Source of the DNA: Candidatus Heimdallarchaeota archaeon
Lineage (GTDB): Archaea; Asgardarchaeota; Heimdallarchaeia; JABLTI01
Length of the DNA stretch: 27,093 bases
Direction of reading: 5' to 3'
Assembly: GCA_030614005.1 (NCBI GenBank)
Contig: JAUWKS010000044.1
Span: 1 to 27,093, forward strand
The position numbers were made by a program, and so were the translations under genes. Below the pieces are notes generated by a model. The model was not told the DNA's origin. It made no database searches and worked only from the letters and a program-made list of their open reading frames with translations. This document shows positions 4,901-23,317 of the stretch, in pieces. The first letter of the stretch is position 1. Every line of letters begins with the position of its first letter.

Positions 4901-4924
4901 TTCAAATCCCGGGGGCCAGACCAA
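4901..4924 (+). repeat. tRNA-Tyr 3'-end remnant (T-loop to CCA), att-like direct repeat, allele A
   Basis: TTCAAAT CCCGG GGGCCAG A CCA. 4902-4924 is identical to 21289-21311 (23 bp). No tRNA 5' half upstream. Confidence 0.85.
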
Positions 4925-5102
4925 CTTCTATTTCTCTTTGGTCTGTATCAAAACGATCATTAATGCTCTTCTTAAGAATCTTGAAAGCAGTTGGCGTATT
5001 TAAGTAACGATACAACAGCAACGTTGGAGATGATAATGTATGAATGCTTCTCTCCCATATTTTTTTATTTTTAAAAAAATACACTAGATTGAGTTGTTTA
5101 TT

Positions 5103-5702
5103 ATGAAACAAACTAGAAAAGCGAAATTCATTCAGTCTCTCCCTATGATATTGGTCATTACTAACATATTACTTGTTTTCTTGACACCTTATGCTATCAG
5201 CATTTTTCGAGGTAGTATCAGTGGATCTAGAACAACCATTGATTTCACTGTTGATATCTTCGGCAATTGGGTTGAGCAGCGTATTTTTTATGGTTTTAGT
5301 GAGGGAACATCTATTGGTGTTGCGAGTAACATTGGTTCTTACATTCCGGGTACCGTTGTGTTAATCTCTATTGCTCTGTTTCTAAGCTTTATAGGAACAC
5401 CATTGATCGCCTCTCCTTTGGATTTTAAAAAGAAGAACGTGTCCTTTGAAGAAAAGGTCAGAAAGGGCAAAATAACGCGTTTAGCTGGTTCGATATTTTC
5501 AATATTAAGTGGGTTACTTGGTATTATTAGTTTGATTCTCTTTGGTGTCTTCAAACTCACTATTGTCCAACCCTACGATCATTTCCCTTCAAGTAATACA
5601 CCTGTTGTTCGATTATCTTTTAGCTTCTATTTCAGTTTACTTTGTTTTACTGCTCTGATTATTGCTGGAATCTTCATAAATCATAATTGCATTTTGCTTT
5701 AA
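5103..5702 (+). CDS. four-TM membrane protein
   Basis: Four hydrophobic segments, with a large loop after TM1. ATG 5103 preferred over TTG 5094. Confidence 0.75.
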   Translation: MKQTRKAKFIQSLPMILVITNILLVFLTPYAISIFRGSISGSRTTIDFTVDIFGNWVEQRIFYGFSEGTSIGVASNIGSYIPGTVVLISIALFLSFIGTPLIASPLDFKKKNVSFEEKVRKGKITRLAGSIFSILSGLLGIISLILFGVFKLTIVQPYDHFPSSNTPVVRLSFSFYFSLLCFTALIIAGIFINHNCILL

Positions 5703-6293
5703 ATTACGTTTCAACCAAACATCTCTAATAGTATGTAATAAGTTTCGATAATAACCCCAAAATGCATCAATAGCCATATCATCTAATGAATCTACACCTT
5801 CTAGCAAGGCTACTCTAAATTGTGCTATTATTAATGAGAATTTCTTTATTAATGATTGATTATCAAATCTAGTTGTAATACGAAATCCATAATTATATAA
5901 TAATCCCAATTTTGTATCAAGAAATAAAAGTTTGAGATATTTCGATTCGTTTTTAAAATTCATTTCTTCTAGTTTCTTTGTTAGTTTGTTAACTTGTTTT
6001 CTCAAACTAAGTTTATTCATTTCTTTCTTTGCCAATCTTTTATCAACAAAAGATTGGTTGATAATTCGAATTAACTGAATTATTATTTGGTTGCTTATTT
6101 GAATATAAATATTGGTTTCTTTTTTGAAATTTATCTCAATTAATTCAACTCTATTTTCTATCATAAATTCAACTTTTGTTTTTCCTTCAATGTTAGATTC
6201 TGGTAACTTAATTATAATATTATCATGTCTAATAAACCTTTTAAAATCTGAAGAAATTTTATCAGTTAACAATGTATGATGTACCATATACAA
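5637..6293 (-). CDS. basic hypothetical protein (start uncertain)
   Basis: 218-aa ORF with no motif recognised; overlaps the 3' end of the previous gene. Confidence 0.5.
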   Translation of the reverse strand: MYMVHHTLLTDKISSDFKRFIRHDNIIIKLPESNIEGKTKVEFMIENRVELIEINFKKETNIYIQISNQIIIQLIRIINQSFVDKRLAKKEMNKLSLRKQVNKLTKKLEEMNFKNESKYLKLLFLDTKLGLLYNYGFRITTRFDNQSLIKKFSLIIAQFRVALLEGVDSLDDMAIDAFWGYYRNLLHTIRDVWLKRNLKQNAIMIYEDSSNNQSSKTK

Positions 6294-6486
6294 ACTTTTT
6301 AAACTTCTTTTTTCTTGGTAAATATCGCTAAGATATTCTCACCACAGTTTACCCATAATTTCCACCAATATGAAAAGGTTATTTTTAATGATTAGCAATA
6401 AGAATATACAACTATCTTGTTTCACCAATAATTGTTATTTAGTTAGACAGAATTAAATTTTTTCCTTTTTCCACTTATAATCTTCG

Positions 6487-6537
6487 TAATCTTGCAAAAT
6501 CTAGATATTCTTAATAAATATCATTTTTGCAAGATTA
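6487..6537. promoter_or_regulatory. 13-bp perfect inverted repeat, candidate operator
   Basis: TAATCTTGCAAAA (6487-6499) and TTTTGCAAGATTA (6525-6537) lie in the divergent intergenic region upstream of 6605. Confidence 0.5.
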
Positions 6538-6604
6538 TTTGTATTAGTTATTTTTTTCAGAAAATATTATATACGATACATTATTATTATAAATTTAAAG
6601 GACA

Positions 6605-7531
6605 GTGATTTTTTTGCTGTATTGCAAACATTGTAATAAGGAATTATCTGAACCTGTAAAAAGATGTTCATTTTGTAATCAAAAAACGGATATACCCTAC
6701 AATGTTTTGAATGCTTTTAAGTTAGAATATTTACTATTGAAACGTTTTGAAAAATTAAAGTCCAAAAATCCTGATTTGCCATATGATAAATTAGAAGAAT
6801 TAATACTGGAAAAGCTTGCTGTATCTGTAAATATGCAACCAGGATTTCTTCTCGGGTTATTTTCCGGAAGCAGTCATCCAAATTTACATAATCTTGTATT
6901 AGGAAAACTAAAGGAAATTGATGATTGGTATTATCCTAGGCGTAGAGCTGTTGATGAGTTATTAAGTGGTGTAGACGGAGAAAATATAATTTATGGTGCA
7001 TTGAATCTAGGTGCAATTGGTCTGCATTCATATGGATCTGTTTGTGTTTTTTTGAGAAGTGAGGACATTCAATTTAAAACTTCATTCATTGAATCAAATA
7101 GCTATTTATATGTTGATAAAAAAGGAAATTTTAGAGTCCCAGATGGATCACGTTCTTTGTGGAATAATGTTATCAAATTGATTCTATTAAAACATAATAA
7201 AGAAATAAAGGAATTGGGAAATAACTTCGATATACAAGATATTGCTAACATCATATTATTATCAAATGGTGATAAAAATACAGATGTTTATATTGAAGCT
7301 CATATTTGCCAACAGATTAAAGCATTTAATATTGAAAAAATGACTTTTGCTCCCAAATATTTCAAACAAAAAGATTTAGGAATTAAACAAAAATTAAGAG
7401 AATATTACGAGCATGAAGAAGAAATGCTTCTCCATCTTAAAACAGCTACAGAAATGATAAAAGAAGATTATAAAGTCATTTTAGGACACTATGCATTTTA
7501 TTGTCAAATACCATTTGAAGTTATTAAATAA
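6605..7531 (+). CDS. zinc-ribbon plus DUF3626-like (ADP-ribosyltransferase-like) protein
   Basis: N-terminal CKHC...CSFC. Motifs IYGALN, YGSVCVFL, TSF..SNS and YIEAHI follow the order remembered for DUF3626 (YGAL...YG..Y..L...TF...DS...YIEAQ). Confidence 0.6.
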   Translation: MIFLLYCKHCNKELSEPVKRCSFCNQKTDIPYNVLNAFKLEYLLLKRFEKLKSKNPDLPYDKLEELILEKLAVSVNMQPGFLLGLFSGSSHPNLHNLVLGKLKEIDDWYYPRRRAVDELLSGVDGENIIYGALNLGAIGLHSYGSVCVFLRSEDIQFKTSFIESNSYLYVDKKGNFRVPDGSRSLWNNVIKLILLKHNKEIKELGNNFDIQDIANIILLSNGDKNTDVYIEAHICQQIKAFNIEKMTFAPKYFKQKDLGIKQKLREYYEHEEEMLLHLKTATEMIKEDYKVILGHYAFYCQIPFEVIK

Positions 7532-7546
7532 ATTATGGGATAAGAT

Positions 7547-22482: not shown

Positions 22483-22533
22483 TTCTAGTTCTCAATTGTG
22501 AAATGGTTTCGCAATCCGCTTACTTTTTTCATC

Positions 22534-22572
22534 AACCGAGATGAGGGGAGTTCGAATCTCGGGGTTAGACCA
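22534..22572 (+). repeat. tRNA-Tyr 3'-exon remnant, allele B
   Basis: AACCGAGATGAGGGGAGTTCGAATCTC-GGGGTTAGACCA aligns with 21474-21513. Confidence 0.8.
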
Positions 22573-22723
22573 ATTCTTTAACGAATAAAAAATAATTAGT
22601 TATAGTCTTAAAACTAATCTAAACCAATTTTTTACTCATTTTAAACCTTCAGAACCCAACAACAACTATTCTCAGAGATACCTTTTGTATATTCGTGTCC
22701 TATACTTATTTGTGATTTAAAAA

Positions 22724-23161
22724 ATGAAAAAATCAATACTTATACCACTCTTAACAGTAGGTCTTCTTGCAGTGGTTGCAGGATCTACTCTGGGCTTAAT
22801 ATATGCTTTCTCTCCTAGTGACGATAGTGAACTAGAAGTTGTAAGTGTAACAACTCAACCTGGTACAGACCAAGTTACTGTCATTTTAGAATGTGAAGAA
22901 AATCAAACTGGTAACCTAACCAGAAATAGATTCAGAAGAAACTTCGCTTATATGCACCAAATCCAAGTTAACAATTCCGACACAAATGAGCTTATGCTTC
23001 AAGAAAGAATACAAAACCAATGGCAGCACCGAGTCCAAGCAGGTAAAACCCTAATGTATCAATTCAATATCGAAGGGCTTGAAAATGGACAAATGTTACA
23101 ATTGAGAATTGAATACAACAACGGCAAAATACTAACTTATAATTTTCAAGTAAATGGTTAG
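22724..23161 (+). CDS. secreted or membrane-anchored small protein
   Basis: N-terminal signal/TM MKKSILIPLLTVGLLAVVAG, then a beta-rich body. Confidence 0.75.
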   Translation: MKKSILIPLLTVGLLAVVAGSTLGLIYAFSPSDDSELEVVSVTTQPGTDQVTVILECEENQTGNLTRNRFRRNFAYMHQIQVNNSDTNELMLQERIQNQWQHRVQAGKTLMYQFNIEGLENGQMLQLRIEYNNGKILTYNFQVNG

Positions 23162-23172
23162 CCAAAAACATG

Positions 23173-23210
23173 AAAAGGGGAAGCTATGTATTTCCCTTCT
23201 TTTTTCTTTT
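23173..23210 (+). terminator. hairpin plus T-tract
   Basis: GGGAA...TTCCC followed by a T-rich tract, just after the stop at 23161. Confidence 0.45.
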
Positions 23211-23275
23211 AATAGGTTAGTGAAATTATATCTTGAACGATTTTTTTCATCATGTCAAAAACGTGTTTTTTATCT

Positions 23276-23317
23276 GTAACCGAGATGAAGGGAGTTCCAA
23301 TCTCTAGAGTCTGATCA
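23276..23317 (+). repeat. tRNA-Tyr 3'-exon remnant, allele B, most decayed
   Basis: GTAACCGAGATGAAGGGAGTTCCAATCTCTAGAGTCTGATCA aligns with 21472-21513 and 22534-22572. Confidence 0.7.

What the first reader, a model, noticed from the sequence alone, without database searches (positions are those of the whole stretch)
4901..23317. Five same-strand tRNA-Tyr 3'-end remnants partition the whole accessory region
Seen: remnants at 4901, 21289, 21472, 22534 and 23276, all ending in a discriminator-A plus CCA-like sequence. They fall into two alleles: A (CCCGG-GGGCCAG, two identical copies) and B (CTCYR-GGG/GAG..., three diverged copies). Established: site-specific integrases inserting in tRNA genes leave a 3' fragment at the distal end, and repeated use builds tandem arrays. 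Inference: this is a long-lived tRNA-Tyr integration hotspot, with the functional tRNA-Tyr upstream of the window. The two alleles would record two waves of acquisition.
Basis: partly seen in the sequence, partly recalled or inferred. Interest (0 to 1): 0.85.

Follow-up and report, generated by a model that had tools for sequence, protein, structure and literature searches.

The report
Integrase-less island array behind tRNA-Tyr
In this Heimdall-group Asgard archaeon, the DNA behind the tyrosine tRNA gene is a landing pad where foreign gene packets (largely defence-type genes) have piled up, each closed by a leftover copy of the tRNA's end; this is a familiar kind of hotspot, notable mainly because no inserting enzyme is found anywhere in it.

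Summary
The five tRNA-Tyr 3'-end copies are real. All lie on the + strand, and they are the only tRNA-Tyr-like sequences in the 3.6-Mb assembly apart from one intact gene.

That gene is an intron-bearing tRNA-Tyr(GTA) on another contig, C6:6846-6984. In three same-genus genomes, tRNA-Tyr sits upstream of the homologue of window 23.3-27.1 kb, on the same strand. The spacer there measures about 2.7, 8.5 and 14.5 kb and has different content each time. Three relatives carry remnants of their own.

The hotspot reading therefore holds, with corrections:
- The copies have three extents, not two alleles: T-arm to CCA (4895, 21289), D-arm to CCA with the intron (21379-21513), and the 3' exon (22534, 23276).
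- About 12 nt of trailer after the CCA is repeated as well.
- No integrase, whole or fragmentary, is in the window, C6 or any relative's hotspot.
- The gene beside remnant 1 is HEPN/Abi-like, not a recombinase.
- Comparison with the closest relative does not show a clean newest-nearest-the-tRNA order.

Similar integrase-less arrays occur on contig C55 and on three metagenome contigs. This scan has noted such arrays before on other DNA (DPANN tRNA-Ala, chlamydial tmRNA).

Verdict: a new member of a known kind.

The parts
4895..4923 (+). Remnant 1: T-arm to CCA of tRNA-Tyr, 27/29 matches to the functional gene, followed by a conserved ~12-nt trailer and 29 nt homologous to the DNA after the real tRNA on C6
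21289..21310 (+). Remnant 2: T-loop to CCA. Together with the next base it is 23 nt identical to remnant 1
21379..21513 (+). Remnant 3: tRNA-Tyr positions 8-76 including the intron. Anticodon ATA, no 5' acceptor strand, intact T-stem of a variant type seen in other species of the genus
22534..22571 (+). Remnant 4: decayed 3' exon copy, 31/40 matches
23276..23317 (+). Remnant 5: the most decayed 3' exon copy, 29/40 matches. Its orthologue is present in G010 (L024 10754-10782)
1..4894 (.). Segment S0, accessory DNA, 30.2% GC. Carries a minus-strand gene trio: HEPN-like 4011-4892, winged-helix 3596-3898, unknown 487 aa 2100-3563. Repeat modules at 953-1431
4011..4892 (-). 293-aa HEPN/Abi-like protein, not an integrase. 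Invariant R-N-x3-H, and the fold matches HEPN clusters
4924..21288 (.). Segment S1: 16.4-kb island between the identical remnants 1 and 2, 29.6% GC, not found in 30 relatives. Carries an ANL enzyme, a DUF4062-STAND-TPR protein, a TnpB fragment and ParB
19022..19795 (+). ParB/Spo0J-type partition protein (TIGR00180, above cut-off). 59-64% identical to homologues in MAGs of other archaeal phyla
13306..16407 (+). DUF4062-STAND NTPase-TPR protein, a defence-type architecture
21514..22533 (.). Segment S3: single-gene unit, an APH-family kinase
22572..23275 (.). Segment S4: single-gene unit, 145-aa protein of a multi-copy genus family
23318..27093 (.). Conserved distal flank, 35.4% GC: Imm5-like gene, 205-aa ORF, AlaDH-N-domain gene, saccharopine-dehydrogenase-like gene. 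Syntenic with tRNA-Tyr in G010, G009 and G003

Best explanation
The 3' part of the single tRNA-Tyr(GTA) gene serves as attB of a long-used integration hotspot.

Proposed mechanism (inferred):
- Incoming circular elements carry a copy of the tRNA's 3' part plus about 12 nt of trailer as their attP.
- Conservative site-specific recombination rebuilds the tRNA at the proximal junction. It leaves a partial tRNA copy at the distal junction.
- Those distal copies are not under selection and decay.

At least three kinds of site have been used. They differ in where the copy starts (all run to the CCA):
- the T-arm (remnants 1 and 2)
- the D-arm, including the intron (remnant 3)
- the 3' exon (remnants 4 and 5)

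This implies at least four or five events by different recombinases.

The recombinase genes are no longer in the array. They were either lost after integration or acted in trans. Deletions and rearrangements have reduced several units to one gene and blurred the order. What remains is 27 kb or more of AT-rich accessory DNA, much of it defence-like.

Shown: the repeats, the tRNA, the synteny, the variability between genomes, and the lack of an integrase. Inferred: the recombination chemistry and the order of events.
For: Copies and target gene:
- Five same-strand copies, with no other tRNA-Tyr-like sequence in the genome except the intact gene.
- The intact gene has C1:G72, A73 and a CU-GUA-GA anticodon loop, with a 61-nt intron (my reading of the sequence).

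Synteny and variability:
- tRNA-Tyr and the flank lie on one contig and one strand in G010, G009 and G003. Spacers are about 8.5, 2.7 and 14.5 kb, with unrelated content.
- G003 has two remnants, one 23/23 identical to its own tRNA end. G005 has one. G010 shares remnant 5.
- S0 and S1 were not found in the 30 relatives searched.
- GC is 0.296-0.302 in S0 and S1, against 0.354 in the flank and 0.335 genome-wide.

Signs of site-specific recombination:
- Identity falls from 93-95% for the proximal copies to 72.5% for the distal one.
- The repeat extends about 12 nt past the CCA at the tRNA and at remnants 1-4. The 29 nt after remnant 1 match the DNA after the real tRNA.
- In L040 and L043 a 22-nt tRNA-Thr end travels with the adjacent gene as its last codons. 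The element therefore carries its own att copy, as attP would.

Precedent (review PMC8371274):
- Archaeal integrases prefer tRNA 3' ends with varying 5' limits.
- Their sites can reach the D-loop and extend beyond the gene.
- They use intron-bearing tRNA genes.
- Their elements integrate in tandem.
- Integrase genes are lost after integration.
Against: - No recombinase of any recognised class, and no fragment of one, is in the window, C6 or the hotspots of six relatives.
- The canonical integrases of the genus are not beside tRNA ends.
- The tRNA-proximal DNA (C6 6985-7420) is shared with G010, while the G000-specific DNA lies further out. This is not what simple newest-proximal stacking predicts.
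- Only 68 nt separate remnants 2 and 3, so one 'element' is almost entirely gone.
- C6 and C77 are not joined in the assembly.
Confidence: 0.68

Rival explanations
1. The units are non-autonomous gene cassettes, integron-like or CIME-like. Each carries a tRNA T-arm-to-CCA site and is inserted and shuffled by a recombinase encoded elsewhere, possibly of an unrecognised family. They are not decayed autonomous elements.
For: - One- and two-gene units fill the space between repeats with no room for an integrase. Examples: S3 and S4 here; the G003 755-aa and 209-aa units; AIPR plus HEPN in L043; the AlbA_2 unit in L075.
- Contig C55 of the same genome holds five T-arm-to-CCA copies separating PIN/AbrB toxin-antitoxin units.
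- The terminal gene's stop codon lies inside the T-loop in L040 and L043.
- No array examined contains an integrase.
Against: - No candidate trans-acting enzyme was found.
- There is no conserved gene next to the intact tRNA. Upstream lie a peroxiredoxin and a 144-aa gene.
- No circular cassette or alternative junction was seen (inconclusive data).
- S1 is 16 kb and plasmid-like (ParB), not a cassette.
- Deletion after integration can also leave single genes.
Confidence: 0.2
2. The copies are products of local duplication and pseudogenisation of the tRNA-Tyr gene plus ordinary rearrangement. The accessory DNA arrived by other routes.
For: - Remnant 3 is nearly a whole gene with its intron, only 68 nt after remnant 2.
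- Breakpoints against G010 do not sit exactly on remnants.
Against: - The short copies start at defined points (T-arm, 3'-exon boundary) and are all co-oriented.
- The same pattern recurs at tRNA-Tyr in G003 and G005, at tRNA-Thr in L040 and L043, and in L075 and C55.
- Remnant 3 has a compensatory T-stem pair and an acceptor unlike the resident gene, so it is not a simple local duplicate.
Confidence: 0.08
3. The 22-30-nt repeats are target-site duplications made by a staggered-cut integrase. An earlier scan note reports Cas1-like genes in this genome; a transposase is the other option.
For: - Remnants 1 and 2 are identical over 23 nt.
- From my own knowledge: casposons target tRNA 3' ends.
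Against: - No terminal inverted repeats are evident, by inspection, at the S1 ends shown.
- No Cas1 is in the array.
- The repeat copy that travels with the HEPN gene in L040 and L043 differs from the other copies at the same locus. This fits an element-borne attP, not a duplication.
- Remnants 1 and 2 share C62, whereas the tRNA has T62.
Confidence: 0.04

Closest known systems
Tandem integrated mobile elements at archaeal tRNA genes (Thaumarchaeota, Methanococcales, Thermococcales, Sulfolobales; reviewed in PMC8371274)
   Same: - Uses the tRNA 3' end as attB with varying 5' limits.
- The site extends beyond the gene.
- An intron-bearing tRNA gene is usable.
- Integration is in tandem at one locus.
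- The integrase gene is lost after integration.
   Different: - The host is a Heimdall-group Asgard archaeon and the target is tRNA-Tyr.
- None of the units in six genomes keeps an integrase.
- Several units are single genes.
Heimdallarchaeum mobile elements at tRNA genes (HeimV1 at tRNA-Gly, aloposons, CRISPR-Cas loci; Wu et al. 2022, PMC8813620)
   Same: - Same archaeal group.
- Integration next to tRNA genes.
- Partition-type gene: a MinD/ParA-like ATPase in aloposons, ParB-like according to PMC11529989.
   Different: - HeimV1 encodes its own integrase and was shown as a circle.
- Aloposons carry giant genes.
- Neither feature is present here.
Cis-mobilisable elements and accretion arrays of streptococcal ICEs and IMEs (my own knowledge; the review PMC5704250 was listed but not read)
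   Same: att-flanked islands that lack recombination genes, built up by repeated use of one tRNA-type attB.
   Different: That system is bacterial, its integrases are known and its mobilisation has been shown. Here no helper element is known.
Integron cassette arrays
   Same: Small promoter-poor gene units separated by a repeated recombination site. The cargo is defence or toxin-antitoxin genes.
   Different: - There is no intI-type gene or attI next to the array.
- The site is a tRNA 3' end, not an attC hairpin.
- Membership was tested and not met.
Integrase-less tRNA/tmRNA-end cassette arrays noted earlier in this scan (e1-5237106, DPANN tRNA-Ala; e1-4768881, chlamydial tmRNA)
   Same: Copies of the RNA gene's 3' end separate small accessory or defence units, with no integrase.
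   Different: Different lineage and different RNA gene. Those notes are unchecked by me.

Membership tests
tRNA-gene integration hotspot with att-flanked islands | Co-oriented direct repeats that copy the 3' part of one tRNA gene | tested here: met
   Five + strand copies, E 7e-9 to 0.015, with none elsewhere in the genome
tRNA-gene integration hotspot with att-flanked islands | Intact cognate tRNA at the proximal end, on the same strand | tested here: inconclusive
   The intact tRNA-Tyr is on contig C6, not joined to C77. Adjacency and orientation are inferred from G010, G009 and G003, where both lie on one contig
tRNA-gene integration hotspot with att-flanked islands | Content between tRNA and distal flank varies among close relatives | tested here: met
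   Spacers of about 2.7, 8.5, 14.5 and at least 27 kb with unrelated genes. S0 and S1 were not found in 30 relatives
tRNA-gene integration hotspot with att-flanked islands | Excision or integration junctions (circle, empty site) observable | tested here: inconclusive
   Only short, low-depth Logan contigs were available. No joint at a remnant was seen
Autonomous integrative element (tyrosine or serine integrase) | Recombinase gene inside the element, next to an att site | tested here: not met
   Pfam, PHROGs and NCBIfam scans; PF00589, PF16795 and PF00239 genome scans; a genus integrase HMM over six-frame ORFs; hhalign. All negative in the hotspots
SSV-type 'suicidal' integrase element | Integrase gene split by the att site into N and C parts at the two junctions | tested here: not met
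   The ORF abutting remnant 1 is HEPN-like. The 88-codon frame on the other side is not a significant family hit. No PF16795 hit in the genus
Integron | intI-type integrase and attI beside the array; attC hairpins between cassettes | tested here: not met
   Upstream of tRNA-Tyr lie a peroxiredoxin and a 144-aa gene. No integrase is present. The repeats are tRNA ends
Casposon / Cas1-mediated insertion | Cas1 gene, terminal inverted repeats, target-site duplication | tested here: not met
   No Cas1 domain in the window. The S1 ends are not inverted repeats, by inspection
HEPN superfamily (for ORF 4011-4892) | R-x4-6-H motif in a helical bundle | tested here: met
   R221, N222 and H226 are invariant or nearly so in 31 homologues. 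The AF2 model has pLDDT 82.7. Top AFDB clusters are HEPN families at E 2.8e-4 and TM about 0.46, a moderate match

The most novel reading that the evidence does not exclude
Heimdall-group archaea may have a cassette system in which small defence and toxin-antitoxin gene units each carry a tRNA T-arm-to-CCA site plus a short T-rich trailer. Often the last gene's stop codon lies in the T-loop. The units would be inserted, stacked and exchanged behind tRNA genes by a recombinase encoded elsewhere and not yet recognisable. That would be a tRNA-anchored functional analogue of integrons in the closest prokaryotic relatives of eukaryotes.
Probability: 0.22. Interest if true: 0.75.

Novelty: new member of a known kind. 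Interest (0 to 1): 0.45.

Why it matters
The finding pins down one concrete, recurrent entry point for foreign DNA, largely defence-type genes, in Heimdall-group Asgard archaea. Gene flow in this group bears on models of eukaryote origins. It also shows that the tRNA-Tyr gene of this genus, although interrupted by a long intron, has been used as a target in at least three different ways.

No recombinase was found across six genomes, three metagenome contigs and a second array in the same genome. That is the one feature that could point to something new, and it gives a defined att sequence with which to fish for the missing enzyme or helper element.

Tried and rejected
Is the gene beside remnant 1 the integrase?
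- I tested whether the 293-aa gene at 4011-4892 belongs to a new integrase family. Its relatives end inside tRNA-Thr 3' ends.
- Rejected: it has an invariant R-N-x3-H motif and matches HEPN folds.
- The MAFFT alignment of the 88-codon frame right of remnant 1 to that family is not supported by an HMM search.

Other recombinase searches:
- hhalign of four other unknown ORFs against the genus integrases gave probability 0.9% or less.
- The 487-aa ORF gave only weak HEPN_Apea leads.
- The canonical integrases of the genus were fetched and are not beside tRNA ends.

Read and collection searches:
- Laying reads gave only short Logan contigs at about 3-5x depth. There was no circular junction or empty-site junction at the remnants. 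The joint 11727 to 5125 is a paralogue artefact of the repeat at 1262-1431. Contig breaks near remnants and uneven cover in run X5 are not evidence.
- The exact 22-mer has no hit in viral contigs. Its one hit in metagenome contigs lies in an unrelated GC-rich contig.
- Homologues of the S3 and S4 genes in relatives carry no tRNA-Tyr remnant nearby.
- ParB relatives in other archaeal phyla share no other S1 gene and have no tRNA nearby.

TnpB-guide idea, taken from an earlier scan note:
- The TnpB fragment at 12829-13282 is not next to any remnant.
- 'Piece A' at 12391-12531 is a truncated Zn-ribbon gene, not an omega RNA.

Other:
- Rfam found nothing relevant.
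Full report
**Observation**

The window is the whole of contig C77 of a 3.6-Mb, 126-contig, 33.5% GC assembly. Earlier scan notes identify it as a Heimdall-group Asgard archaeon.

The allele-A 22-mer occurs exactly at 4902 and 21289 on the + strand. None was expected in shuffles. A profile of seven functional tRNA-Tyr 3' exons from the genus finds five hits in the window, all on the + strand:

| Hit | E-value |
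|---|---|
| 4894-4923 | 3e-5 |
| 21289-21310 | 0.015 |
| 21475-21513 | 7e-9 |
| 22535-22564 | 7e-6 |
| 23279-23305 | 2.5e-4 |

. Over the whole genome the same profile adds only the real gene on C6 and the T-arms of unrelated tRNAs. ARAGORN calls no tRNA in the window.

The copies have three extents:
- Remnants 1 (4895-4923) and 2 (21289-21310) run from the T-arm or T-loop to CCA. They are identical over 23 nt.
- Remnant 3 (21379-21513) covers tRNA positions 8-76 with the intron. Its anticodon is ATA and its 5' acceptor strand is missing.
- Remnants 4 (22534-22571) and 5 (23276-23317) start at the 3'-exon boundary.

Matches to the functional 3' exon are 27/29, 21/22, 32/40, 31/40 and 29/40.

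**The tRNA and its position**

An intact gene lies at C6:6846-6984. ARAGORN reads it as Asn(GTT) with an oddly placed intron. With the intron at the canonical 37/38 position the anticodon loop is CU-GUA-GA. The gene also has C1:G72 and A73, the archaeal tRNA-Tyr identity set (my own knowledge). It differs from allele A at one T-stem base.

C6 and C77 are not joined in the assembly. In three same-genus genomes, however, the C6 locus and the homologue of window 23.3-27.1 kb lie on one contig and one strand:
- G010: tRNA at L024 2061-2199, with the orthologue of remnant 5 at 10754-10782 and the flank from 11409.
- G009: tRNA end at L025 8506, flank from 5787.
- G003: tRNA at L026 17587-17754, flank from 3054.

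The intervening DNA is about 8.5, 2.7 and 14.5 kb and carries unrelated genes: SBBP surface proteins, DUF2785 with an FMN reductase, a histidine kinase and oxidoreductases. In G000 it is at least 3.6 + 23.3 kb.

G003 has two remnants of its own. One is 23/23 identical to its tRNA end, and they bound a 755-aa and a 209-aa gene. G005 has one remnant 12 kb upstream of the flank.

S0 and S1 were not found in the 30 relatives searched. They are more AT-rich (0.296-0.302 GC) than the conserved flank (0.354).

**Signs of site-specific recombination rather than plain duplication**

About 12 nt after the CCA, a T-rich block of the type TTTTCTATTTCT, is similar behind the real tRNA and behind remnants 1-4. 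The 29 nt after remnant 1 are homologous to the DNA after the tRNA on C6.

Remnants 1 and 2 share C62 where the resident tRNA has T62.

Remnant 3 has a compensatory T-stem pair and an acceptor unlike the resident gene. It therefore derives from another functional tRNA-Tyr variant.

**No recombinase**

The following all failed to find a tyrosine, SSV-type or serine recombinase, or a fragment of one, in the window, C6 or the hotspots of G010, G009, G003, G005, G006 and G004:
- Pfam, PHROGs, NCBIfam and PADLOC scans of all sizeable ORFs.
- Genome scans with PF00589, PF16795 and PF00239 over the genus.
- An HMM of the genus's own integrases against all six-frame ORFs of every hotspot locus.
- hhalign of the unknown ORFs.

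The integrases that do exist in the genus are not beside tRNA ends.

**The gene beside remnant 1**

ORF 4011-4892 (- strand) looked like a candidate. Its homologues are rare: 37 among 1.84 billion representatives. In metagenome contig L040 such a gene ends inside the last 22 nt of an intact tRNA-Thr, with a 22-nt remnant 3.95 kb away. In L043 the same arrangement sits inside a three-copy array.

The family nevertheless has an invariant R-N-x3-H motif. A confident model (pLDDT 82.7) matches HEPN and Abi-like clusters. It is a defence-type gene, paired here and in L073/L074 with a 100-aa neighbour gene; the copy here (3596-3898) has winged-helix matches.

What these contigs do show is that the 22-nt tRNA end travels with the unit as its last codons. 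That is how an element-borne attP behaves.

**Generality**

L075 has four co-oriented T-arm-to-CCA copies separating defence units: AlbA_2; Peptidase_C11 with HEPN; PIN, Mrr and PDDEXK.

G000 contig C55 has five such copies separating PIN/AbrB toxin-antitoxin units, with no intact tRNA on the contig. None of these arrays holds an integrase.

**What does not fit a simple stack**

Against G010, homology stops at window 1345 and resumes at 23231, 45 nt left of remnant 5. The 450 nt right after the tRNA (a Zn-ribbon gene) are shared by both genomes. The G000-specific DNA therefore lies in the middle of the region, not next to the tRNA. Only 68 nt separate remnants 2 and 3. Deletion, and recombination between att copies or repeat modules, must have reshaped the array.

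**Comparison with what is known**

The review of archaeal tyrosine recombinases (PMC8371274) states that:
- archaeal integrases prefer tRNA 3' ends with varying 5' limits;
- their sites can reach the D-loop and run beyond the gene;
- intron-bearing tRNA genes are used;
- elements integrate in tandem;
- integrase genes are lost after integration.

Heimdallarchaeum elements at tRNA genes are described in PMC8813620. So the finding is a new member of a known kind.

The open point is the consistent absence of any recombinase and the one- or two-gene size of many units. This leaves a modest chance (about 0.2) of a trans-mobilised cassette system.

**Read data**

Only short Logan contigs from cold-seep and marine-sediment metagenomes were available. 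They show no junction at the remnants. This is inconclusive.

Noticed in passing
G000 contig C55: 4821-4843, 7053-7075, 7904-7926, 8880-8902, 12999-13021 (all - strand): A second array in the same genome. Five T-arm-to-CCA copies of another tRNA, each followed by a T-rich trailer, separate small PIN/AbrB-type toxin-antitoxin units. No intact tRNA or integrase is on the contig.
   Followed up: partly
L040 4123-8151; L043 2880-7874; L075 1998-12218: Metagenome contigs with the same architecture: tRNA 3'-end copies bounding defence units (HEPN family, AIPR, AlbA_2, PIN, PDDEXK). In L040 and L043 the HEPN gene's last seven codons and its stop are the reverse complement of the tRNA-Thr end.
   Followed up: partly
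window 2100-4892 (- strand): A likely three-gene defence operon: HEPN-like 293 aa, winged-helix 100 aa, and an unknown 487 aa with weak HEPN_Apea-type leads. The HEPN plus 100-aa neighbour pairing recurs in L073 and L074.
   Followed up: partly
window 10606-11651: A single 346-aa gene is inserted into a repeated ~370-nt module. The module is uninterrupted at window 1073-1339 and in G010 (L024 4372-4651). AAATTAG stands on both sides of the insertion and once at the empty site.
   Followed up: partly
window 953-1063 (also C6 9513-9605, C71 45067-45142, C36): A ~70-110-nt segment is conserved at 78-87% in most genomes of the genus, often in several copies. Its function is unknown and it has no Rfam match.
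   Followed up: no
C6 7160-7414; window 12391-12531; C95 9710-9836: A family of small four-Cys Zn-ribbon proteins of about 84 aa. The copy right after tRNA-Tyr is shared with G010. The window copy is N-terminally truncated and lies next to a TnpB C-terminal fragment (12829-13282, - strand).
   Followed up: partly
L026 17587-17756, L028 3838-4008, L031 324-497, L035 533-700: The tRNA-Tyr genes of G003, G007, G005 and G008 carry a second insertion of about 30 nt just before the T-arm, besides the anticodon-loop intron. G000, G010, G009, G002, G004, G006 and G011 lack it.
   Followed up: no
window 19022-19795: The ParB gene of S1 is 59-64% identical at protein level to genes in Methanobacteriota, Methanoperedens and Bathyarchaeota MAGs, with no other S1 gene alongside. 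It looks like a widely transferred solitary ParB.
   Followed up: partly
C6 6846-6984; C1 13901-14020: With introns allowed, ARAGORN mislabels the tRNA-Tyr gene as Asn(GTT), and labels as Tyr(ATA) a gene whose 3' end nearly matches that of the tRNA-Ser(TGA) on C35. Only 17-24 tRNAs are called in the genome, so tRNA-based scans here under-count.
   Followed up: no
L028 (G007:C64 9000-21000): In G007 the tRNA-Tyr gene is inverted relative to both its upstream neighbours and the AlaDH flank. This would fit an inversion at the hotspot.
   Followed up: no
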